64,000 nt of DNA from Octopus vulgaris (taxonomy: Eukaryota), in contig OX597833.1 of assembly GCA_951406725.2 (NCBI GenBank), positions 50,840,001-50,904,000 of the forward strand. The letters are read 5' to 3'. Shown piece by piece: positions 1 through 63,878 of the stretch. Position 1 is the first letter of the stretch. Each line of letters opens with the position of its first letter. The notes below the pieces were generated by a model. It made no database searches and was not told the DNA's origin. It was given only the letters and a program-made list of their open reading frames with translations. Made by a program: the position numbers and the translations under genes.

Positions 1-193
1 AAGTACCAGGCAAGTACTGGAGATCGATTTAATCCTCTTATCCTCTCTTCTCAAAAGCTGTTGACCTTCAATCCTGCAACAGACGGGCGTCTCGTTCAGT
101 GTTCAACTTCTACTTACTTCATCGACCCCCGGAAGCATAAAAGGCGATGTCAACATCGGCAGAATTTTAACATAAAATGTGAGAAGAGATACC

Positions 194-427
194 TATTTCT
201 TTACTACCCACAAGGGGCTAAACATAGAGAGGACAAACAAGGACAGACAAACGGATTAAGTCGATTATATCGATCCCAGTGCGTAACTGGTACGTATTTA
301 ATCGACCCCGAAAGGATGAAAGGCAAAGTCGACCTTGGCGGAATTTGAACTCAGAACGTAACGGCAGACGAAATACCACGATGCATTTCGCTCGGCGTGC
401 TAACGTTTCTGCCAGCTCGTCGCCTTT
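194..427 (-). mobile_element. SINE family A, young full-length copy nested in an older family A copy (111-193 and 447-490)
   Basis: Minus strand reads GGCGACGAGCTGGCAGAAACG (A-box-like) ... GAGTTCAAATTCC (B box) ... TTTCATCCTTTCGGGGTCGAT ... AAAGAAATA. Flanked by a 19-bp direct repeat AAATGTGAGAAGAGATACC at 175-193 and 428-446. Confidence 0.9.
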
Positions 428-552
428 AAATGTGAGAAGAGATACCGCTAAGAATATTGCCCGACACGATAACGAATCTCCCGCTCTGATGACCTCGTAC
501 CTAATTCAGAAACCGAAAAGCAAGAAAAATAATAACAATAAGTATAGTAACA

Positions 553-770
553 ATTCTTTCTACTAAAGGCACATGACCTGAAATCTGGGGGCGAAGGGGC
601 TTGTCGATTACATCGGCCGCAGTGCGTCACTTTTACTTAATTTATAGACTCCGACAAAAAAAAAAAAAATGAAAGGTAAAGTCGGCTCCACCAGAATTTG
701 AACTCAGAACGTAAGGACGAACGAAATGTGACTAACTATTTTGCTAGCGACCTTGCCAGCTCACCGGGTT
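553..770 (-). mobile_element. SINE family A, diverged copy
   Basis: Matches the family A body (GTCGATTACATCG, GAATTTGAACTCAGAACGTAA, GCCAGCTCACCG). Confidence 0.8.
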
Positions 771-793
771 AAGTGTAGCTGAAATGTTATTAG

Positions 794-5623: not shown

Positions 5624-6325
5624 GTATATATATGACTGTCCATATTGCAGGCATTTCATTATGGAAGTTATAGCTATCCAGAACGTCAGTTCCAATCGAG
5701 AACCAATTGTAGCCAAGTTCGAAATTATACATTTGAAAAATCTTTTTATTTCCTAAGTTAATCATTTTACCAGAGAATAAATTCTTAGACAATAATATGA
5801 AGTGGCTAATATTCCATTCCTGATTTTAATGGCTGACTTCTGGGACAATGCATATATGGTAACAATAGAAATGAAATGGCGAAACTTTGGAGAGCATTTA
5901 ATGCTGCATTCCTCAAATGAAAAATAAATTCATTTTCGCATTTCGCTTTTCATTAAAATCATTCTTCGGGAATGTCTGTCTTCAGAAGACTTCTGAGAAC
6001 ATAAAGTCACGAGATGTAAAGATATTAAATATTTGGAGTGGATATTGAAATATTAATATCATCTGCGTCGTATGTCTTTCGTGTTTGGATGCGTGCTTGT
6101 ATGGGAAGCGTGCGTGTATGGCCACATGCGTGTAGATCCGCGTACGTCGTAGAGCCGAGTGTATGTGTGATGATGTCGATAAATGTGTGTGACTGTGCAT
6201 CTTTGCACCAATGTGTATGTATGAATGCGTATGAGCATATGTATTCAGATGCATGTGTAGATGCATAATAGAATGTATGTGCGCGTGTGAATGCGTATGC
6301 AATTGTGCCTCTTTGTATCTACGTA

Positions 6326-6712
6326 TACTCTTTTACTCTTTTACTTGTTCCAGTCATTTGACTGCGACCATGCAGGAGCACCGCCTTTAGTCGACCAAAT
6401 CGACCCCAGGACTTATTTTTGTAACCCTAGTACTTATTCTATCGGTCTGTTTGGCCGAGCTGCTAAGTTACAGGGACGCAAACAAGCGATGTTATGGGGA
6501 GTGGGGGCAAACACCACAAACACACACACACACACACATACACACACACACGACGGGCTTCTTTCAGTTTCCGCCTGCCAAATCCACTCACAAGGCTTTC
6601 GTCGGCCCGATGCTATAGTAGAAGACACTTGCCCAAGGTGTCACGCAGTGGGACTGAACCCGAAACCATGTGGTTGGTAAGCAAGCTACTTACCATTCAG
6701 CCACTCCTGCGC
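6326..6712 (-). mobile_element. SINE family B (tRNA head, CORE-like segment, internal microsatellite)
   Basis: Head GCGCAGGAGTGGCTG..GGTAAG, B box GGGTTCAGTCCC, CORE-like CACCTTGGGCAAGTG, internal (CA)n, tail AAACAAGTAAAAGAGTAAAAGAG (all on the minus strand). Confidence 0.9.
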
Positions 6713-7050
6713 GTGAAAATCTGTATGAATGTATACATGCGTGAGATTCTATGTGTCCATGTGTATACTGGATGTGCGACTCTCCTTGTGTTTGATTTTA
6801 AATGGTGATGGTCATCTGTGTTGGTACGTTTGCACACAAATGTGGGTATATCTTGTTTCTGCGTCTATGCCATATATGAAAGTGAGTTTTATATAATCGT
6901 GTGAGGCTGTACATGAGTGTATGCGAGCATCCTTCTTATTTATGGTGGCGTGTATACGTATGTATGTATGTATGTATGTATGTATGTATGTATGTATGTA
7001 TGTATGTATGTATGTATGTATGTATGTATGTATGTATGAATGTATGTATG

Positions 7051-7926: not shown

Positions 7927-9789
<1,863 letters not shown>

Positions 9790-13925: not shown

Positions 13926-15949
13926 TGTTTATGAAAATGTATAACAAAGAAATAGATATAGTTTATTGATTGTGTCTATTTTTACCATCTATTCATTATT
14001 GTAGGAATATATATCATTGTTGAGTTTAATATAGTAATAGTACCCCTTTCACAAAACATGATACTTGATGCAGTGGACTTGATGGTCAAATGACCATCTC
14101 AGTCTTGAATGCCTTCGGTAATTTTCCACTGTATTATACGAAACTCTCTCATGTTATGTGTGTACCAACTTCTACTTTGGTTCACGTTTTTATATACCCA
14201 AACAAAATAATCTCTCAAATTTGAAATCTTCCCTGTTCGACACAAGCAACAAAGTTAACTAATTTAGCAATAATATAATTAAACCCATTTTTAAAATAAT
14301 TAATTTTGTTGTGATATGTGTAAAGATAAATAAGTACGACTTGATCACTGGATCGATTTGTCTTGACTACTCCTGGGTTTGAATATAAAAACTGTCAAGC
14401 TATGTCGAACCAGAGCGGCAGAGTTAGGCTCATGAAACCAGTATCATTGCAAGCTCAAATTCCCGGCCCTCACATCTGACCGTGGCTGGTGGTGAGTAAA
14501 TGCAGAGGCCTTCGTAGTGTAGTGGACTGAAAGTGTACAATCCAATCCAATTCAAGTGTAAAGTTAGACCTATTTTCATTTTAATTTAGATTAAACAGAT
14601 CATTAAAAAAAGTCATGTTCTTAAAGCACACATTGATTTAGCAGAGACGCTAATACGTTGGGTAGAATGTTTTACAGTATCACTTCTGTAACTTTGCACC
14701 CCGAGTTTAAATTCCGTCGATATTTACACAGCTTTTCGTCTTCCCGAGATTGATAAAATGTACCAAGTCTATCCGATTGATTAGCAGAACTGAAAGAAAA
14801 AATTACGTTGCGGTATTTGTCTTGCTGACTTCAACTTTATCTTTTATCGTTTCTGAGTCTTAATGAATTAAATGCATTTTGATTTCAGCAGAGCATATTC
14901 AAGAATAAAAAAAAAAGGTTTAGTGCATTGAGACCCAAAACGTTGGATTAGTGAAAGTCTAGGAACTTGGGCCAGATCATTTTCCCCATTTTTCCCGGCT
15001 GTTTTGAGTGCTGAATTCAAATTTTATACCTTCTATGTTCTACTTGGGTGGGAAACTTAAAACATGATCCGGTTTTGCACAACCATATTAGCTTAAAGCT
15101 TTTAACAGAGAACTCACCTCTAAAGGTGTCGACCTCGGGGCCCTGATTGAATTTATTCTGTTGCAAGTATTCGGGTAAGCAATCCAGTTTGAGGATCTCT
15201 CTCGCTCTCTCTTTCTTTCTCTCTCTCCGCATTACCAGTTTCTGTTAGTAATGAGATAAAAATGGCTCTTTGTTTAAAAAATCTGTTTCAAGTCTCTATT
15301 TCTACACTCTTTGGGTTGCGAAAGAAGACAAAACTTGCCTATTTATTGTTACTGCCCTCATGAAGGACACAATGCTCGTTTGCACAATTGAATCCACGAT
15401 CTTATTAACATAAACCAAACATCCTTAACCACTTGGCCTTCAGCCTCCTTCATTGTTTTTAGTCACATAGTTTCATAAACATAGTACCGTCCTTACAATG
15501 TTTAAACACTAGTATGACACTTCGCTTCTCTCTTCACCGAATGTTCATAGCATTTTCGTAGGTTTCCGCAGTCATTTGATCCCTGTTCATTCAATACTCC
15601 ATCGTACATTAAATCACTATTCCATCCATAATAAATATTTTTTAAACTTGATATATCATCTAATTGTTCATGAATTAATAATGAACATTATCCACTTAAA
15701 TAATGCAACAGCGCCTCTACTTGAAGCACTTCAACTCTTCCCTGATTACATGAATAATAATTATGTTATGAAAGAAACCATAAACCATAGCTGTCGGTAT
15801 TTAGCTCCCATCAGACTCGATCAAGTAGATTTGAAAACGTGCAAGCCATGGCCATTGTGTCTTATTTTCAGACAGTTTAAGCAAATCTATATACAATGAG
15901 ACCCTATTCTAAAACAGTTATGTCGTAATGCGTTGGCAACATGGCTATT

Positions 15950-16367
15950 ATTTCTTATTTCTTTATTGCCCACAAGCGACTAAACACAGAGGGAACAAAC
16001 AAGGACAGACAAAGGGATTAAGTCTACTACAGTGACCCCAGTGCGTAACTGGTACTTAATTTATCGACCCCGAAAGGATGAAAGGCAAAGTCGACCTCGG
16101 AGGAATTTGAACTCAGAACATAACAGCAGACGAAATACCTGTTTCTTTACTACCCACAAGGGGCTAAAAACAGAGAGGACAAACAAGGACAGACAAACGG
16201 ATTCAGTTGATTATATCAACTCAAGTATGTAACTGGTTCTCGATTTATCGATTCCGAAAGGATGAAAGGTAAAATCAACCTCGGAGGAATTTGAACGCAG
16301 AACGTAACGGCAGACAAAATACCGCTAAACATTTCGCGCGGCGTGCTAACGATACTGCCAGCTCACC
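15950..16367 (-). mobile_element. SINE family A dimer (two units, one head)
   Basis: Units end at GAAATACC (16139) and AAATACC (16323); head GCTAAACATTTCGC..GCCAGCTCACCG occurs once. Confidence 0.9.
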
Positions 16368-16683
16368 GAATTATTTCTAGCAATCTGCTCGAAATAACAG
16401 ATGGCTGTTATTTCTAGAAGATTGAGTGGCCTCTTAGACGCCTCTTCATTGGCTCAAGTACCGCATAATATATCATTTTCCTGATTATACCAATCTGCTT
16501 CTAATCTATAACTCATATATGAATGTATATGATTTATAGTTTAGGAGAATTAATAAATACTTGAAACCTCTCACACGGTGGATTAATGCCAACAATATAC
16601 TCCTAAATTCAGACAAAAGAGATTATATATAACTTTAACTCATATAAAAATCAAATCTTATAAAAGAAAATTGGTTTCACAAA

Positions 16684-28438: not shown

Positions 28439-28599
28439 CATGTATATATTCTTTTACTTGTTTCAGTCTTTTGACTACAAAGCCACGCCTACGCCTTTGC
28501 ATATATACATATGTACGTACATGCATGCATGCGTGCGTGTGTACTTACATACATACATGCATATCATATCATATAGAATTGAATTGAATAATAATTCTT

Positions 28600-29567
28600 T
28601 CTACCATAGGTACAAGGCCTGAAATTTGGGGGAGAGCTTAGTCGATTACATCGACCCCAGTAACCAACTGGTTCCTAATTTATAGACCCGAAAAACATGG
28701 ATGTAAGGTAAAGTTGATCTCAGCAGAATTGGAACTCCCAACGTTAAGGCGGAACATATACCTATTTCTTATTTCTTTATGGCCCACAAGGTGCTAAACA
28801 CAGAGGAGACAAACAAGGACAGACAAACGGATTAAGTCGATTAGATCGACCCCAGTGCATAACTGGTACTTAATTTATCGACCCCGAAAGGATGAAAGGC
28901 ACAGTCGACCCCGGCGAAATTTGAACTCACAACGTAACGGTAGACGAAATACCTATTCTTTACTACCCACAAGGGCTAAACACAGAGAGGACAAACAAGG
29001 ACAGACAAACGGATTAAGTCGATTAGATCGACCCCAGTGCATAACTGGTACTTAATTTATCGACCCCGAAAGGATGAAAGGCACAGTCGACCCCGGCGAA
29101 ATTTGAACTCACAACGTAACGGTAGACGAAATACCTATTTCTTTACTACCCACAAGGGGCTAAACACAGAGAGGACAAACAAGGGCAGACAAACGGATTA
29201 AGTCGATTATATCGACCCCAGTGCGTAACTGGTACTTATTTAATCGACCCCGAAAGGATGAAAGGCAAAGTCGACCTCGGCGGAATTTGAACTCACAACG
29301 TAACGACAGACGAAATACGGCAGACGAAATACCTATTTCTTTATTACCCACAAGGGGCTAAACACAGAGAGGACAAACAAGGACAGACATAGGTATTAAG
29401 TCGATTACATCGACTCCAGTGCGTAACTGCTACTTAATTTATCCACCCCGAAAGGATGAAAGGCAAAGTCGACCTCGGCGGAATTTGAACTCACAACGTA
29501 ACGGCAGACGAAATACCGCTAAGCTTTTCGTCCGGCGTCCTAACGTTTCTGCCAGCTTGCCTCCTTT
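28600..29567 (-). mobile_element. SINE family A array: one old copy (28600-28762), four young units, one head
   Basis: Junctions ATACC|TATT at 28762, 28953, 29135 and 29333; head begins after 29517. Confidence 0.92.
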
Positions 29568-30879: not shown

Positions 30880-31490
<611 letters not shown>

Positions 31491-32299
31491 GTATCTTTTT
31501 GCACTTTACTCATTTTGGAGATACGAAGATTTTGTCCTACATGTTTGTTTGTACGTTACATATCTTTCTGTGTGCCCCAATGGTTATACATATCATCATC
31601 ATCATCATCATCTTTCCTCAGTAGTTCCATGCGAGTTTCTACTGCATCGACTGTTGCACCTCCGTTTCCCTGGGGTGCACGCAGCATAGTGTTTATATAT
31701 GCATGTGGATCGAAGGAGCACAGACCTTTCTTAGTGGTGTGCTACTTCAGTTTTTCTTTATTTTCATCATCATGGGGTAGAGTTTCTTATTTCTTGTTTT
31801 ATTAGTGTTTATTCTACTGCGCTTGGCTTGTGTAATAATGTCGGTCATGTTATTTTAGTGGGCGTTAATCTTGTATAGTATATGTACCGCGAGTTGTGTT
31901 GCTTTAGATTATTAGATGCTTATTGTATTGGGTGTGTGGGATGTGTGAAGATTGCTTTAATTCAGCTACTCAAGTGAATTGATAATATCTTGCACTAGGT
32001 GTAAGCAGTTATTAGCAGAGTTATTTATGGAGAGTCTGTAGAGTTTTGAGCCCATGTGTTTCTTTTCATATGTTTTAACCATGCTCTAAATACTAATGGT
32101 ATTGTTTTCACCGTCATGCCTCACATCTTGTATTATTATTATTGTTTCCATTTTACTTCCGAGGAATCTCGATTTTACCTGCTCCTGTTAATTCTGTAAA
32201 GGCGGACAGCAACCTGTTTGTCAAAGGTCTCAGGGTTTCTGTCCACGATATTTAACACCCAAGTATCAATCGCAAAATCTTTTTTAGTATTTTTTTTTT

Positions 32300-33992: not shown

Positions 33993-34869
33993 TACATCAC
34001 GCATACACACACATAAACGTACACAAACATATATATATATAAGCATACAAATATATATGTGCATATATGTATGTACGTACTTATGCATGTATACGAAACT
34101 GATTTTTCTGAGGAATTACGGAGAATCTTTAGGCTATATCCATCAAGAAGCAATGGGCCTAAATAATATATCACATTTTTTGTAATTCTCGCTCCTTTCC
34201 ATTCCGCCATCGGTGTTAACATCAATGATACGAATATAATAGCAGAATTAGTGGTTAATGAGCGTCAATGAATTTTGTCAGCAATGGTGTGTTCAGATTT
34301 ATGAGAAGCAATGTTAGCTAAAGTGAGAAATTTCTTCGTCTAATTCTTGATATTTTTGACGTGGTATCTCTTCCGAGCAAGTTATATTTTTGGCGTACTG
34401 CCCAGACTTTCTAGTATGTGTCTAGGCTATTTAAATGCCAAAATCTTTGCCAAAATTGGTCGTATACGTTTAATGACGCTGCATGATATTGGAGAAGTAT
34501 GCGGCCTTTATGCCTGGTCATTACACATCATTCTTTTATAAATTTTCCATTTTCTGTTTTTCTTTACCAAATGACTTTCAGCAGTCACATGCATGCATCC
34601 CCCAATATGCCGATATATATATACATACATTCAGTTCGAAGTTACATTTCCCCACTTTTACTCGCCGTTAATATATCAATCTGTTCTCTACTGATTTAAT
34701 AAAATCCGATTAGAGATTTTGTTGTAGATGGATGGAAGTAAATTCACTGCGGGTAATTACATTAGATTAAATACATCACTAGCTATTTCAGCATTTAGAA
34801 TTTTCATCAAAAATTAATTACATCGCAAATTAATACATCCTTAATAAAGACATTCATCATTCTAAATAC

Positions 34870-35470
34870 TTATTTCTTTATTACCCACAAGGGGCTAAAG
34901 ATAGAGGGTACAAACAAGGACAGACATAGGATTTAAGTCGATTACATAGACCCCAGTGCGTAACTGGTACTTAATTTATCCACCCCGAAAGGATGAAAGG
35001 CAAAGTCGACCTCGGCGGAATTTGAACTCACAACGTAACGGCAGACGAAATACCTGTTTCTTTATTACCCACAAGGGGCTAAACATACAGGGGACAAACA
35101 AGGACAGACATAGGTATTAAGTCGATTACATCGACCCCAGTGCGTAACTGGTACTTAATTTATCGACCCCGAAAGGATGAAAGGCAAAGTCGACCTCGGC
35201 GGAATTTGAACTCACAATGAAACGGCAGACGAAATACCTGCTTCTTTATTACCCACAAGGGGCTAAACATAGAGGGGACAAACAAGGACAGACATAGGTA
35301 TCAAGTCGGTTACATTGACCCCAGTGCGTAACTGGTACTTAATTTATCGACCCCGAAAGGATGAAAGGCAAAGTCGACCTCGGCGAAATTTGAACTCTCA
35401 ACGTAACGGCAGACGAAATACCGCTAGGCATTTCGCCCGGAGTGCTAGCGATTCTGCCAGCTCGCCGCCT
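34870..35470 (-). mobile_element. SINE family A trimer (3 x 184 bp, one head) with a 17-bp TSD
   Basis: Units end at 35054, 35238 and 35422; TSD TTCATCATTCTAAATAC at 34853-34869 and 35471-35487. Confidence 0.95.
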
Positions 35471-36350
35471 TTCATCATTCTAAATACATCGTGGGAAAAT
35501 TCAGCGTTATACCTTTTATCTGAAGAGTAATAACACCTCACTAAACTTTATTTTATATATACTATAAATTTTTTAGTTGCGAAAACAATACGTAATATTT
35601 CATTAACAATGAAAGAGATATGTCAATTTTATAATTCTATATTCACGAAATTTTTAGGGAAGTTGTTGAAGAAACAATAAAAAGAAATGAAGTAATAGTG
35701 GAACCGTGTATCGCGTATGTAGATAGTTCTACGCAGCAAATAAAAGAAAAATATGAAGATAACGCTGCAAAAAATTCAACGCAGTGTCAATGAATATAAA
35801 AAGTACGAAATAACGGAATATTTAAGAGGTATTGTCTAAGATGTGTCTTTATAAGCGTAATTCTTTTTTTTTTTTCTACCTTAAAATAATGTTATTTTCT
35901 TGCTGGAATTTTTTTCTTTTGTGATTCATAGTTTAAAAGAAATTTTAATGCTTTTTTTTTTCATAGAATAATTTTGATGTTAATTTTGTGATTTAATTTT
36001 GAATTCATTTTTATTGTTAAATAAACGCGACATGTTTTCTGTAGGAACAAAAATCTTAAATAATGCTTAATGATGTATTTACTCTGCATTTAATAATATA
36101 CCAGAACAACACAAAACAGCATTCATTGAGACGTTTCGCTTACGGTGTAATTAACATATGATGATTCTCGTGTAGGTTAAGAAGTTTGCTTGCAAGCATA
36201 TGTTTTCAAGTGTCTTCTACTATAATCCCAAGCCGACCAATGCCATCAGAGAATTTGGTAGATAGAAACTGTGTGGAAGCACGTCGAATATATATATATA
36301 TATATATATGAATATAAATGAATATATATATATATATGTATATATATATG

Positions 36351-36627: not shown

Positions 36628-36866
36628 AATCGGTTCATTCACTACAGCTGTTTCAAATGCGTTTTTTATTGATGAATAGAGATATTACGTCTTCGGCTGA
36701 AGTTAGCCAGGAATTATGAAGTGGTACATAACAATTCTTGGAAGGTTTTTAAAGATGTTTAACTCGTGTATATTCACCTGAAGACACGTGTTTTCTCGCA
36801 TGATTTATTATCTCAATTCAACAGTAAAATAATTTGTTTGAAACAGCTGTAGTGAACGAACCAATT
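36628..36866. ncRNA. Inverted pair of degenerate hammerhead-like motifs
   Basis: Plus strand: TTCAC-CTGAAGA(36778)..GAAA-CAGCTG-TA-GTGAA(36856), with a perfect 5-bp stem I. Minus strand (36638-36701): TTCAG-CCGAAGA..GAAACAGCTGTA-GTGAA. Stem II is degenerate in both. Confidence 0.55.
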
Positions 36867-43851: not shown

Positions 43852-44279
43852 TAATAATAATAATAATAATAATAATAATCTTTTCTACTCTAGGCACAAG
43901 AATCCACCCTCCTCCTGCTACTCCTCCTCATCCTCCTCCTCATCACCATCATCACTACCATCATCAATATTTTCAGCTACAGCAGTACTATTAGTAGTTC
44001 CTCAACAGCTTTATGCGTGTCTTTATTGCCACAGCCAGGTGCCCCATCATCTTCTTGAGGTGCATGAATAATTAAAGCTCTAGAATCGAGTATTGATTAA
44101 ATAAGCGTTTGTTTTCGGCTATGTGACAAATTAGCTGAGTTGTTAGAGTGCTTCTGAGAATGCCTCCCAGTAACTGTTCCGGCTGTGCGTGCTCTGAGTT
44201 CAAATTCAACCGCTACCAAATTTCTCTTTCATTATATCATGGGTCGAAGGTACCGAGCTGACAGAAACGTTAGCAGGTT

Positions 44280-44630
44280 AAGGCGGTGAGCTGGCAGAAT
44301 CGTTAGTACGCCGGGCGAAATGCTTAACGGTATTTCGTCTGCCGTTACGTTGTGAGTTCAAATTCCGCCGAGATCGACTTTGCCTTTCATCCTTTCTGGG
44401 TCGATTAAATAAGAACCAGTTACGCACTGGGGTCGATACAATCGATTTAATCCGTTTGTCTGTCCTTGTTTGTCCTCTCTGTAGTTAGCCCCTTGTGGGT
44501 AGTAAAGAAATAAGTATTTTGTCTGCCGCTGCGTTCTGAGTTCAAATTCCGCCGAGGTCGACTTTGCCTTTCATCCTTTCGGGGTCGATAAATTAAGTAC
44601 CGGTTACGCACTTGGGTCGATATAATCGAT
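44280..44630 (+). mobile_element. SINE family A dimer
   Basis: Head AGGCGGTGAGCTGGCAG, junction AAAGAAATA|AGTATTTTGTCTGCCG (~44511), then a second headless unit. Confidence 0.9.
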
Positions 44631-44677
44631 TGGATAAGTTCCATGCTGCGTTTATACAGCGTAGGAGTGAATGTGTA

Positions 44678-44962: not shown

Positions 44963-45225
44963 AATGGTTGTATAATGTAAATTTAACGTGACAGTAGGGG
45001 ATTACACCACCGCTGTTTAGCCCTAGGAAGCATCGACGCCTCCTGATGGCTTCAACACATTTTTTCCCTGTGTCCTTATATATTTATTTCTCCCCTTCGT
45101 AAATATATAAAGACACAGGAAAAACAAATGTGTCGAAGCCATCAGGAGGCGTCGATGCTTCCTAGGGCTAAACAGCGGTGGTGTAATCCCCTACTGTCAC
45201 GTTAAATTGACAGTATACAACCATT
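44963..45225. mobile_element. 263-bp fold-back element (MITE-like hairpin)
   Basis: Arms of ~125 bp (AATGGTTGTATA..TTATATATTTA / TAAATATATAA..TATACAACCATT), 13-nt loop at 45087-45099, CGAT on both flanks. Confidence 0.85.
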
Positions 45226-53489: not shown

Positions 53490-53491
<2 letters not shown>

Positions 53492-53699
53492 TCTTTTACT
53501 CTTTTACTTGTTTCAGTCATTTGACTGCAGCCATGCTGGAGTACCGCCTTTAGTCGAGCAAATCGACCCCAGAACAAATTCTTTGTAAGCCTAGTACTTA
53601 TTCTATCGGTCTCTGTTGCCGAACCGCCGATTTACGGTGACATAAACACACCAGCATCGGTTGTCAAGCGATGTCCGGGGGACAAACACAGACACACTA

Positions 53700-53738
<39 letters not shown>

Positions 53739-53892
53739 CGACTGGCTTCTTTTCAGTTTCCGTCAACCAAATCCACTCACAAGGCTTTGGTCAACCCGAG
53801 TCTGTAGTAGAAGACATTCGACCAAGTTGCCACGCAGTGGAACTAAACCTTGAACCATGTGGTTGGTAAGCAAACTACTTACCACACAGCCA
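53490..53892 (-). mobile_element. SINE family B, near full length
   Basis: Tail CTCTTTTACTTGTTTCAGTC, internal (CA)/(TA), head CTTACCACACAGCC. Confidence 0.9.
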
Positions 53893-58660: not shown

Positions 58661-58992
58661 TTGACCGGAGGAGGAGGCTGCCCGCTCAACCAATACGCCT
58701 CTGTGGGTACCGCTGCATAACGGACTTTGGTGATGATGGAAACCACTTATAATTAGAACTCCTGAAAAACAACTATCAAAAAAAATCCACTCATATCTTT
58801 ATGCAATGGACTGTCTATAATTTCCCTCACCCCCTCCAACCACCCTCAAAACTTTTATTTGTGTTTAATATAAAATCCTGCAGCTAAGATACCGATCTCA
58901 ATAAGTTTCTCGTCAGAGTGCTCAATCACGAGCTGCGTTGATAGGTCCACTTTCCGACCATACTCCTATTCTATCAACTCTGATATGCTCAC

Positions 58993-59218
58993 CCTTTACT
59001 CTTTACTCTTTTACTTGTTTCAGTCATTTGACTGCGGCCATGCTGGAGCACCACATTTTGTCGAGCAAATCGACCCCGGGACTTATTCTTTGTAAACCCA
59101 GTACTTATTCTATCGTCGGTCTCTTTTGCCGAATCGCTAAGTGACGAGGACATAAACACACCAGCATCTGTTGTCAAGCAATGCTAAAGGGACAAACACA
59201 GACACACAAACATACACA

Positions 59219-59304
<86 letters not shown>

Positions 59305-59472
59305 TATATGACGGGCTTCTTTCAGTTTCCGTCAACCAAATCCACTCACAAGGCTTTGGTCGGCCCGAGGCTATAGCAGAAGACACTTGCCCAAGATGTC
59401 ACGCAGTGGGACTGAACCCGGAACCATGTGGTTGGTTAGCAAGCTACTTACCACACAGCCACTCCTGCGCCT
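58993..59472 (-). mobile_element. SINE family B, full length
   Basis: Complete head (..GCCACTCCTGCGCCT), internal (CA)n(TA)n, tail (TTTACTC)n. Confidence 0.92.
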
Positions 59473-59916
59473 TAACGTTCTTTTTATTTTTCTTCTTCTC
59501 CATAACTCTTTCTTCCGCACGTTGATGACATACACAATACACGTTAATGGCCAACTTCCTGTCGCTGCTAAGCACCCGCATTCCTATACAAGATGTTAAC
59601 ATTCTTCCATGAACATTCTTCATTAATTGAAAAGTGACAATAACTACCCTTACCAAGAAAAGAAAATTTTGCATGTTCTTTCGCCGAGCATGACAACAAC
59701 GAAACTCACTCAAAACTTCCTCTCTTCTGTCCTAGTGACCTCATCTGTATAAAATTGCTTAGCCCTGTCAGGCTGTATTCCTACAACAGCGAGATTAAGC
59801 TAAACGCCATCTCTGCTGGATTCCCGGTGAAGCAGTAATGAACAACAAACGTAGCATAAGAAGACGCAACCGATTCTGTACATTAGCTTTCTTGCAATCG
59901 TCACTCTTGAGCTGTA

Positions 59917-60279
59917 GTGGAGGCGCAATGGCCCAGTGGTTAGGGCAGCGGACTCGCGGTCGTAGGATCGCGGTTTCGATTCCCAGACCGGGCGTTGTGA
60001 GTGTTTATTGAGCGAAAACACCTAAAAGCTCCACGAGGCTCCGGCAGGGGATGGTGGTGATCCCAGCTGTACTCTTTCACCACAACTTTCTCTCACTCTT
60101 ACTTCCTGTTTCTGTTGTACCTGTATTTCAAAGGGCCAGCCTTGTCACTCTCTGTGTCAACGCTGAATATCCCCGAGAACTACGTTAAGGGTGCACGTGT
60201 CTGTGGAGTGCTCAGCCACTTACACGTTAATTTCACGAGCAGAAACCCTCGTCGTCGTAACCGACGGAATGCTTCTATC
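59917..60279 (+). mobile_element. SINE family C, tail type 2, with a 15-bp TSD
   Basis: TSD CACTCTTGAGCTGTA at 59902-59916 and 60280-60294. Confidence 0.92.
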
Positions 60280-60412
60280 CACTCTTGAGCTGTACATGCA
60301 ACAATATATATTTTACTCGAGAGTCCAGGTGAAGGGTAAAATTAGACTAAGGTGTTCAAGTCTGAGAGAGTTAATATGATTCCGAATAACTTCAAGAATA
60401 TGTAACAGGTAA

Positions 60413-60996
60413 AGAAGGTGGCATGAAAAGGTTGCCAGAAAAGGTTATATTTAATAAAAAATAACTTATTTACTTAAGTTTTAACATAATCTCCTTCGAA
60501 ATAGCCCCTTTGTACAGCAAAACATCGGTCGCAGCGTTTCCGCCATTTTTGGAATCTGACCTGGCAGTCACTTTCTGTAAGCGAGTTAAGGACCTTCTAT
60601 GATTCGCTCTGGATATCGACAACGGCATAAAAATGGCCTCCTTTGAGTTGCATTTTTACCTTGGGGGAAGAGATGGAAGGTACAGGTGCTAAATATGGTG
60701 AATAGGGCGGGTACAGTAGCAATACCATGCTGTTTTTCGCGCTCCAGAGATCCGGTCGCTTTCGCTGAATGTCCGACCTAAGATGCTTCAAAACGTTGTG
60801 GGCAATAAAGAAATAACAAAACTATACATGATCACAATGACACAAATTTCACAACTTGCGTAGTAAACATAACGCTGTCACTCGGCACACTGCCCCATGA
60901 AGCTCACTGTTATCTCTCCTAGCGTACGCAACCGAGTTCTGCCATCTGCTGGTGCGTTATAGCATTAGTCTGGGAACTTTTTAAATATCACCTCGT
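60413..60996 (-). pseudogene. Mariner relic, internally deleted
   Basis: YPPYSPYLAP..KMQLKGGHF..DIQ and RCDRCFAVQRGYFEGD on the minus strand; degenerate TIRs (GAGGTG..AAAAGTTCCCAGA). Confidence 0.75.
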
Positions 60997-63168: not shown

Positions 63169-63675
<507 letters not shown>

Positions 63676-63878
63676 TCAAATTTAGGGAAAACAAAAGAAT
63701 AAGGCAGGTGCAGGAATAGGTAGGTGCGTTAGTTTGACGCTCGGGAAGAATGGAAAAGTCTTTTACGCTTCGAGCCTCTGCTCTTCGACAGAAAGGCTTA
63801 AGAGGATATAAAGGAAAGTGAATGAAAAAATTAAAGAAAGGGTTGTATTTGTAGAACTTCAGTCTATAAATTAATCAC

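What the first reader, a model, noticed from the sequence alone, without database searches (positions are those of the whole stretch)
175..490. A SINE caught inserting into its own family at the array-junction site
Seen: a young family A copy (194-427) splits an older copy exactly at ATACC|GCTAAG and leaves a 19-bp TSD. This is the same position at which the family A arrays in the window join. Inference: this is the unresolved intermediate, kept full length because the target was too diverged for homology-based 5' joining.
Basis: partly seen in the sequence, partly recalled or inferred. Interest (0 to 1): 0.72.

Follow-up and report, generated by a model that had tools for sequence, protein, structure and literature searches.

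The report
SINE that inserts into its head
A short jumping element has landed inside an older relative at the same internal spot where its stacked copies join, which suggests the element targets itself and that this seeds its small tandem arrays.

Summary
A full-length 234-bp tRNA-type SINE (minus strand, 427 to 194) splits an older relative between consensus positions 50 and 51 and leaves an exact 19-bp duplication. Nine of 11 family 3' ends in the window join family sequence at position 51/52, and a tenth joins unique DNA starting with the same six bases. So the array junction can be made by insertion into DNA, and the site is a real target.

The locus is a finished insertion. An equally diverged target at 28762 (23/100 versus 23/95 mismatches) shows the array-type join, which argues against 'too diverged'. 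Arrays can arise without homology joining: the consensus has no T4 stop, so transcription from an inner copy should read through and retropose a multimer; the trimer at 35 kb sits in one duplication. One unit also looks locally duplicated.

Self-insertion hotspots (Alu), self-nesting arrays (Zepp) and SINE arrays (bivalves, reptiles) are known. A hotspot inside the promoter head, possibly reinforced by read-through RNA pairing with the target, would be the new part. It rests on five loci.

The parts
194..427 (-). Young full-length family A SINE, 234 bp; head at 427, tail at 194
   Evidence: 14 differences from the window consensus in 234 bp
175..193 (-). Target site duplication, copy at the element's 3' end; equals consensus 51-74 of the old target (which has a 5-bp deletion)
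428..446 (-). Target site duplication, copy at the element's 5' end
447..486 (-). 5' half (head, consensus 10-50) of the older target copy
   Evidence: 31 of 40 identical, above all shuffles and background windows
97..174 (-). 3' half of the older target copy beyond the duplication (to consensus 151; its tail is missing)
   Evidence: 73 of 96 identical over 193-97
343..350 (-). B-box-like motif of the young copy (consensus 78-85)
   Evidence: one search found the motif in the consensus; the window position is derived from the alignment; the B-box label is recalled
406..414 (-). A-box-like motif of the young copy (consensus 14-22)
   Evidence: read by eye against a recalled consensus; my stricter pattern returned nothing
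15956..16366 (-). Two-unit array; 15-bp duplication with 1 mismatch (16401-16415 and 15941-15955) and extra target-like sequence at the 5' junction
28770..29567 (-). Four-unit array of mixed subfamilies; units 3 and 4 identical over consensus 51-196
28590..28762 (-). Old relative with a different tail, entered by the array at consensus 51; no old head or duplication upstream of the array
29303..29332 (-). 14-bp tandem duplication of consensus 52-65 at the unit 1/unit 2 junction
34871..35472 (-). Three-unit array inside one exact 15-bp duplication (35473-35487 and 34855-34869) of unique DNA that begins like consensus 52-57
44247..44640 (+). Head fragment (consensus 2-30), full-length copy 44280-44512, then a unit from consensus 52 to about 168
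31266..31273 (+). 8-bp insertion exactly at consensus 50|51 of an older copy (31218-31345)

Best explanation
Family A is a Pol III-type SINE whose retrotransposition prefers targets starting (G)GTAT(T/C)T, and its own head carries this sequence at position 51, between the A and B boxes. It therefore inserts into itself and its older relatives in the same orientation. SHOWN: the focal locus is such an insertion, complete, with a 19-bp duplication, and its 3' junction has the same form as the array junctions. INFERRED: it arose by target-primed reverse transcription using an unidentified partner LINE. INFERRED: arrays (one head plus head-less 184-bp units) are seeded by such nestings and built by up to three routes: (a) transcription from the inner copy reads through its tail into the target's 51-to-end half, and that multimer RNA is retroposed elsewhere inside a new duplication (16 and 35 kb); (b) repeated insertion in place with loss or replacement of the old head (29 kb); (c) local duplication of a unit (29-kb unit 3). 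SPECULATIVE: read-through RNA carries target-identical bases right after the tail, which could pair with the nicked primer strand and sharpen the preference. The focal copy is a by-product of this targeting, not a precursor awaiting resolution.
For: Nesting and register. Nine of 11 family 3' ends join family sequence at 51/52 (12 rows, one dropped as a 20-bp tail-like match inside an unrelated element). Of the 4 outermost intact 3' ends, 2 enter old relatives at position 51, 1 enters unique DNA matching consensus 52-57 and 1 uses a tail-like target; two hits of four at family position 51 has p about 2e-6 under uniform insertion. The 5' junction falls on base 1 of the head, as an RNA intermediate predicts. 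No run of 4 T in the consensus; the first such run lies 660 bases from the 35-kb head and 873 from the 29-kb head, beyond all young units. 29-kb units are not one clade. Units 3 and 4 differ at 0 of 146 sites 5', units 2 and 3 at 0 of 36 sites 3'. Both old targets keep the first five bases of the site; 2 of 3 old relatives with them are hit and 0 of 7 without (p=0.067, classified by eye).
Against: Only five loci, and junctions within arrays are not independent. A short motif preference alone gives 2 of 4 hits with p about 0.09-0.13 (rough site counts), so special self-targeting beyond a motif is not proven. The 16-kb array's outer 3' end does not use the motif. In that array the upstream unit is the more diverged one (22 versus 15 differences in 184), opposite to the expected order. 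T4 runs lie 251 bases from the focal head and 239 from the 44-kb head, so these loci as they stand could not give multimer RNA. Two heads follow older copies cut near consensus 122-127 (31342, 44247), so not every family-on-family join is at 51. No partner LINE was found. No transcript data.
Confidence: 0.68

Rival explanations
1. One reading: arrays grow in place, the new cDNA joining the target by homology so that the old head and the duplication vanish; full-length nested copies survive only where the target is too diverged.
For: The 29-kb array has no old head and no duplication upstream, ends in a resident old copy, and a T5 run in that old body makes retroposition of the whole array through the old tail unlikely. 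Unit 3 could be a long homology-joined duplication of unit 4. cDNA pairing with upstream target is proposed for R2 (PMC6895275, passages). The 29-kb head is more diverged than its unit 1 body (6/50 versus 7/184, p=0.036).
Against: The 29-kb target is as diverged as the focal one, so divergence does not sort the outcomes. The focal head is also 6/50, so the 29-kb head does not look older than a known young head. The 44-kb locus keeps a full-length copy next to a similar unit.
Confidence: 0.2
2. The preference is set wholly by the partner LINE's endonuclease (as for Tx1-mobilised SINEU); RNA-target pairing adds nothing. This is a rival for the targeting step only and is compatible with the rest of the best explanation.
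For: The unique-DNA target at 35 kb shares the six bases. An 8-bp insertion at 50|51 of an otherwise unoccupied copy looks like a repaired cut. Target choice of non-LTR elements is mainly set by the endonuclease and SINEs can inherit it (PMC4494074, passages).
Against: A six-base motif alone predicts about 13-17% of hits on family sites; 6 of 8 roughly independent junctions would have p about 1e-4 to 4e-4 (the counts were set by hand and multimer copying inflates them). Sequence upstream of the cut is not shared between the focal and 35-kb targets.
Confidence: 0.45
3. Arrays descend from one or a few master multimers plus unequal exchange; the focal insertion hit position 51 only through a mild motif preference and says little about array origin.
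For: The 35-kb trimer lies in one duplication and its units share subfamily variants; a T-to-C change at 233 occurs at 3 internal junctions in two loci and at no outer end, as if junctions were inherited. Unit 3 at 29 kb is a recombinant-like copy.
Against: Two old relatives are entered at exactly 51; 29-kb units come from different subfamilies; the only short repeat shared by tail and head (positions 39-43) is not where the join lies, so slippage does not give this junction (read directly).
Confidence: 0.17
4. Arrays form at the RNA level: the head is cut at the loop of a hairpin (50|51), and reverse transcriptase jumps end to end between 3'-half RNAs in one insertion event.
For: In the folded consensus RNA position 50|51 is the 3' edge of a 4-base loop on a 13-pair stem. 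It would give mixed-source units in one duplication. LINE reverse transcriptases jump templates without homology (PMC6895275, passages).
Against: It cannot explain DNA targets cut at the same place: the focal locus has a duplication, and its target no longer forms the hairpin. As DNA the hairpin is no more stable than shuffles in 5 of 5 stretches folded (z from -1.14 to 0.84).
Confidence: 0.1

Closest known systems
Alu self-insertion hotspot (Levy et al. 2010, PMC2836564; passages and Discussion part 1 of 2)
   Same: A SINE inserts into its own family at one dominant position, in the sense orientation.
   Different: The Alu site follows the A-rich linker, which matches the poly(A) tail, and leaves little or no duplication. 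Here the site lies inside the promoter head, is not A-rich, gave a 19-bp duplication, and coincides with the junction of multi-unit arrays.
Zepp and Zepp-like LINEs of green algae (as described in PMC8226300; passages)
   Same: Nested insertion into existing copies builds tandem arrays made mostly of 3' parts.
   Different: Zepp is an autonomous LINE clustered at one place per chromosome with variable 5' truncation; here a non-autonomous 234-bp element forms many small dispersed arrays with a fixed unit start.
Tandem SINE arrays TSD-(SINE)n-TSD in the clam S. broughtonii (PMC11481361; passages and one results section)
   Same: First unit with a complete tRNA head, later units with one fixed head truncation, whole array inside one duplication (as at 35 kb).
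   Different: There the internal units also lack part of the tail, about 3% of high-scoring copies are in such structures, and the authors suggest recombination. Here tails are complete, 11 of 12 young units are in arrays, and a nested insertion at the junction is present.
SINE-derived satellites of squamates (PMC10702118; abstract and Discussion)
   Same: Tandem repeats of part of a SINE with one longer terminal unit.
   Different: Those reach up to 1000 homogenised units and are attributed mainly to duplication and unequal recombination; these are 2-4 units of mixed subfamily.
SINEU-3 of crocodilians with Tx1-Mar (PMC4494074; passages) and double-insertion tandems (bioRxiv 10.1101/158386; passages)
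   Same: A SINE with strong target preference; repeated insertion makes tandems.
   Different: Their target is another element or the old duplication, which stays between full-length units; here the target is inside the element and no duplication separates units.
R1Bm, I factor, R2Ol priming by RNA-target pairing (as summarised in PMC6007223 section 18 and PMC6895275; the primary R1Bm paper was not held)
   Same: Pairing of the RNA 3' end with the cut strand aids initiation; the model for the proposed feedback.
   Different: Those are autonomous LINEs with a host-gene target; pairing is only hypothesised here.

Membership tests
tRNA-derived SINE (SINE2) | Short (100-600 bp), dispersed, non-coding repeat | tested here: met
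   234 bp; 12 young units at 5 loci and about 10 older relatives
tRNA-derived SINE (SINE2) | Internal Pol III A and B boxes in the head | tested here: met
   B-box-like motif at 78-85; A-box-like motif at 14-22 by eye only, the pattern missed it; both consensus motifs are recalled
tRNA-derived SINE (SINE2) | Head homologous to a tRNA | tested here: inconclusive
   No tRNA hit by ARAGORN or Rfam, which is common for SINE heads; no host tRNA set available
tRNA-derived SINE (SINE2) | Variable-length target site duplications | tested here: met
   19 bp exact, 15 bp exact, 15 bp with 1 mismatch at 3 of 5 loci; none found at 29 and 44 kb
tRNA-derived SINE (SINE2) | 3' tail shared with a partner LINE | tested here: inconclusive
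   The only non-family tail match (60796-60815) lies in a mariner-like remnant; 8 open frames scanned gave no reverse transcriptase hit
tRNA-derived SINE (SINE2) | Transcription by Pol III | not testable with these tools
   No transcript data
MetaSINE / CORE-type central-domain superfamilies | About 60-66 bp conserved domain right after the tRNA head | not testable with these tools
   Resemblance is recalled. The paper's alignments are figures; a search of 2 supplementary files found nothing and file 1 was not searched
Self-insertion hotspot (Alu type) | One dominant position, sense orientation | tested here: met
   9 of 11 3' ends at 51/52, all sense; not independent; window only
Self-insertion hotspot (Alu type) | Site matches the element's own terminal tail | tested here: not met
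   The site does not resemble the A-rich tail in the same sense; it would match only a read-through extension
RTE-mobilised SINE signature | Duplication mostly 13 bp or shorter, T stretch about 10 bases upstream (PMC6007223) | tested here: not met
   Duplications of 15, 15 and 19 bp; only 3 events, so a weak test
Double-insertion tandem (McGurk and Barbash) | Target duplication retained between units | tested here: not met
   Array junctions run tail to position 51/52 with no spacer, except the 14-bp duplication at one junction
SINE-derived satellite | Long homogenised arrays | tested here: not met
   2-4 units; within-locus distances 6-33, mean 14.1, versus 19.5 between loci

The most novel reading that the evidence does not exclude
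A SINE that programs its own target: once a copy nests at position 51, read-through RNA carries target-identical bases after the tail; these pair with the nicked strand and steer later insertions to position 51 of any relative. Each hit splits the resident copy's promoter between its A and B boxes, adds a unit behind a working promoter and creates more such RNA. That would be an RNA-guided positive feedback by which a non-autonomous element captures its relatives' loci and builds arrays.
Probability: 0.27. Interest if true: 0.72.

Novelty: new variant of a known kind. Interest (0 to 1): 0.47.

Why it matters
How dispersed SINEs turn into tandem repeats is usually put down to chance duplication and unequal exchange. 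This locus shows directly that the array junction can be produced by insertion into DNA, which makes the question testable by counting in one genome. If the feedback holds, target choice would be partly encoded in a SINE's inherited flank rather than in its partner enzyme, and nesting in the promoter head would be a form of competition among copies. Practically, such arrays inflate copy counts and distort age estimates made from nested insertions.

Tried and rejected
1. Partner LINE: the 20-bp tail match at 60796-60815 (E 7.6e-4) sits in an element with imperfect inverted ends and a frame resembling a mariner transposase (the label is recalled, Pfam found nothing). Rejected as a LINE end.
2. 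Tail pairing with the site in RNA: the last six bases are the reverse complement of consensus 53-58, but pairing probability is 0 in the monomer and about 0.01 across the junction.
3. DNA hairpin or cruciform as the target signal: not better than shuffles in 5 of 5 stretches, and lost in the focal target.
4. Slippage through the short repeat shared by tail and head (39-43): would keep bases 44-50 in the junction, which are absent.
5. Chance or gene-conversion origin of the focal structure: the repeat is unique among 46,852 positions, and the 5' junction is at base 1 of the head.
6. Dating the 29-kb head to the old or the young copy: inconclusive (p=0.13 against the old body, 0.036 against unit 1, but the focal head is equally diverged).
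7. More copies: two scans of the prokaryotic genome collection and one plasmid search found none. Metagenome and viral collections stayed unchecked, and no eukaryotic genome was available.
8. Literature: 10 searches listed no paper describing this family's arrays or site. The library lacks most subscription papers and Repbase/Dfam, and I read only listings for most hits.

Full report
What is there. Window 175-193 and 428-446 are an exact, non-extendable 19-bp repeat around a 234-bp element. It is the only abutting repeat of 15 bp or more among 46,852 non-simple positions tested at that spacing. The element reads on the minus strand: a head with a B-box-like motif at consensus 78-85 and an A-box-like motif at 14-22 (by eye, recalled consensus), and a tail ending at 194. 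ARAGORN and Rfam give no tRNA hit. The window is AT-rich, full of microsatellites and holds several other SINE-like families. From memory the repeats resemble those of octopus genomes and the central part resembles the Meta domain; neither was testable.

The target. I built a consensus from the 12 young units. With the insertion removed, the flanks align to consensus 10-151 at 104 of 136 identities, above 2000 of 2000 shuffles; each half passes alone. The break is between 50 and 51, and the duplication covers the target's equivalent of 51-74.

The arrays. One search lists 12 tail matches; one (60800) is a 20-bp match inside an unrelated, mariner-like remnant and was dropped. Of the other 11, nine are followed by family sequence from position 51 or 52. 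The two others are the outer ends of the 16- and 35-kb arrays. The 35-kb trimer lies inside one exact 15-bp duplication of unique DNA whose first six bases equal consensus 52-57; the 16-kb dimer lies inside a 15-bp duplication with one mismatch that starts like the tail. The 29-kb array ends in an old relative with a different tail, entered at 51, with no old head and no duplication upstream. At 44 kb a head fragment (2-30) precedes a full-length copy that is followed by a unit starting at 52; this may be a second nesting with a target deletion, or a partial 5' duplication. So of four outermost intact 3' ends, two enter old relatives at 51 (p about 2e-6 if insertion were uniform), one enters the same short motif in unique DNA, and one does not use the motif. 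A short motif preference alone would give two of four with p about 0.09-0.13, so the window proves a preference but not its basis.

Further marks at the site. An older copy carries an 8-bp insertion exactly at 50|51. The first 29-kb junction carries a 14-bp duplication of 52-65, which could be copied read-through flank or plain slippage. Two of three old relatives that keep the first five bases of the site are hit, and none of seven that lack them (p=0.067; sorted by eye).

How units relate. The four 29-kb units do not form a clade (AU p=0.010): unit 1 groups with the 35-kb units, unit 2 with the focal and 44-kb copies, though those forks have modest support. Units 3 and 4 are identical over 51-196 (0 of 146) while unit 3 matches unit 2 over 197-234 (0 of 36). 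That is the pattern of an unequal exchange or a long homology-joined duplication; two 1-bp deletions in unit 3 leave an assembly error possible. A change at 233 occurs at three internal junctions in two loci and at no outer end, hinting that junctions can be inherited.

The locus is a finished insertion: both ends are sealed and the copy has 14 differences from consensus. The divergence argument fails its one available test: the old body under the 29-kb array has 23 mismatches in 100, the focal target 23 in 95 (p=0.87), yet the outcomes differ. Homology-based joining may still explain the missing old head at 29 kb, since a T5 run in that old body would stop read-through, but the head could not be dated.

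Most likely mechanism. Shown: sense insertion at 51 with a duplication, producing the array-type junction. Inferred from established SINE biology: target-primed reverse transcription by a partner LINE, which I did not find. Inferred: because the consensus has no T4, Pol III starting at an inner copy should run through the tail into the target's 3' half; the first T4 is 660 and 873 bases from the 35- and 29-kb heads. Retroposing such RNA gives one head plus head-less units inside a new duplication, with no joining step needed. The focal locus itself has a T4 at 251, so it could not seed a dimer now. Speculative: read-through RNA has target-identical bases after the tail; over the first eight positions the four targets match it at 7 plus one wobble (focal), 6 (29 kb), 6 (35 kb) and 6 plus one wobble (44 kb), but three of these are relatives and match by descent. 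Pairing of RNA 3' ends with the cut strand is reported to aid priming in several LINEs (PMC6007223 section 18; PMC3649969 passages). A purely endonuclease-set preference, as for SINEU-3 (PMC4494074 passages), is at least as likely.

Results against this reading. The upstream 16-kb unit is the more diverged (22 versus 15 in 184). Two heads follow older copies cut near 122-127. The site also lies at the edge of a hairpin loop in the folded RNA, which keeps an RNA-cleavage and template-jump route open for some arrays, though not for the focal locus.

Comparison and novelty. A single self-insertion hotspot is known for Alu (PMC2836564), self-nesting arrays for Zepp (PMC8226300), arrays with a complete first head inside one duplication for a clam (PMC11481361), SINE-derived satellites for reptiles (PMC10702118) and double-insertion tandems for flies (10.1101/158386). 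PMC4758252 and PMC6947457 (passages) added nothing specific. Ten searches listed no description of this family's site, but repeat databases and most subscription papers were out of reach, and figure alignments and one supplementary file of PMC4824008 could not be read. The distinctive points are a hotspot inside the promoter head, arrays holding 11 of 12 young units, and a nested copy that ties the two together. Verdict: real, a new variant of a known kind, interest 0.47; evidence from five loci in one window.

Noticed in passing
window 60396-60995: Remnant with imperfect inverted ends and a minus-strand frame resembling the C-terminal part of a mariner transposase (label recalled; no Pfam hit). 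It contains a 20-bp match to the family A tail at 60796-60815, in the variant seen at the outer ends of the 16- and 29-kb arrays.
   Followed up: partly
window 16367-16415: The 5' junction of the 16-kb array holds an inverted and then a direct copy of target sequence between the duplication and the head, which lacks its first bases; looks like templated insertions at the 5' join. The target seems to be another repeat.
   Followed up: no
window 31218-31500: Two partial family copies head to tail, the first cut near consensus 122; the second stops at about 143 and is followed by ten bases identical to the focal 3' junction.
   Followed up: partly
window 44125-44247: A very old relative ends near consensus 126 directly before the head fragment of the 44-kb locus; another SINE family begins soon after the last unit (about 44669).
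   Followed up: partly
window 545-772, 28590-28762: An older sister family shares the head and central part but has a different tail ending in ATT-like repeats; one copy lies about 60 bp from the focal target in the same orientation.
   Followed up: partly
window 229-234 of the consensus versus 53-58 (e.g. window 186-199): The tail's last six bases are the reverse complement of the site's bases 53-58, so junctions read as a short inverted repeat; no pairing predicted in RNA.
   Followed up: yes
window 1-39: A fragment of a related central domain on the plus strand, opposite to the focal target (E 0.06).
   Followed up: no
window 6316-6715, 53491-53892, 58991-59480, 63302-63676: Two other repeat families often lie next to each other across a CA/TA microsatellite, as if parts of one composite element.
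   Followed up: no
window 59903-60294: A third tRNA-headed family copy with a clean duplication of about 15 bp whose sequence is unrelated to the family A motif; five copies of this family in the window.
   Followed up: partly
window 8035-9587: A long inverted repeat (8035-8420 against 9127-9587) around TAA/TAT microsatellites, and smaller ones at 36628-36866 and 44963-45225.
   Followed up: no
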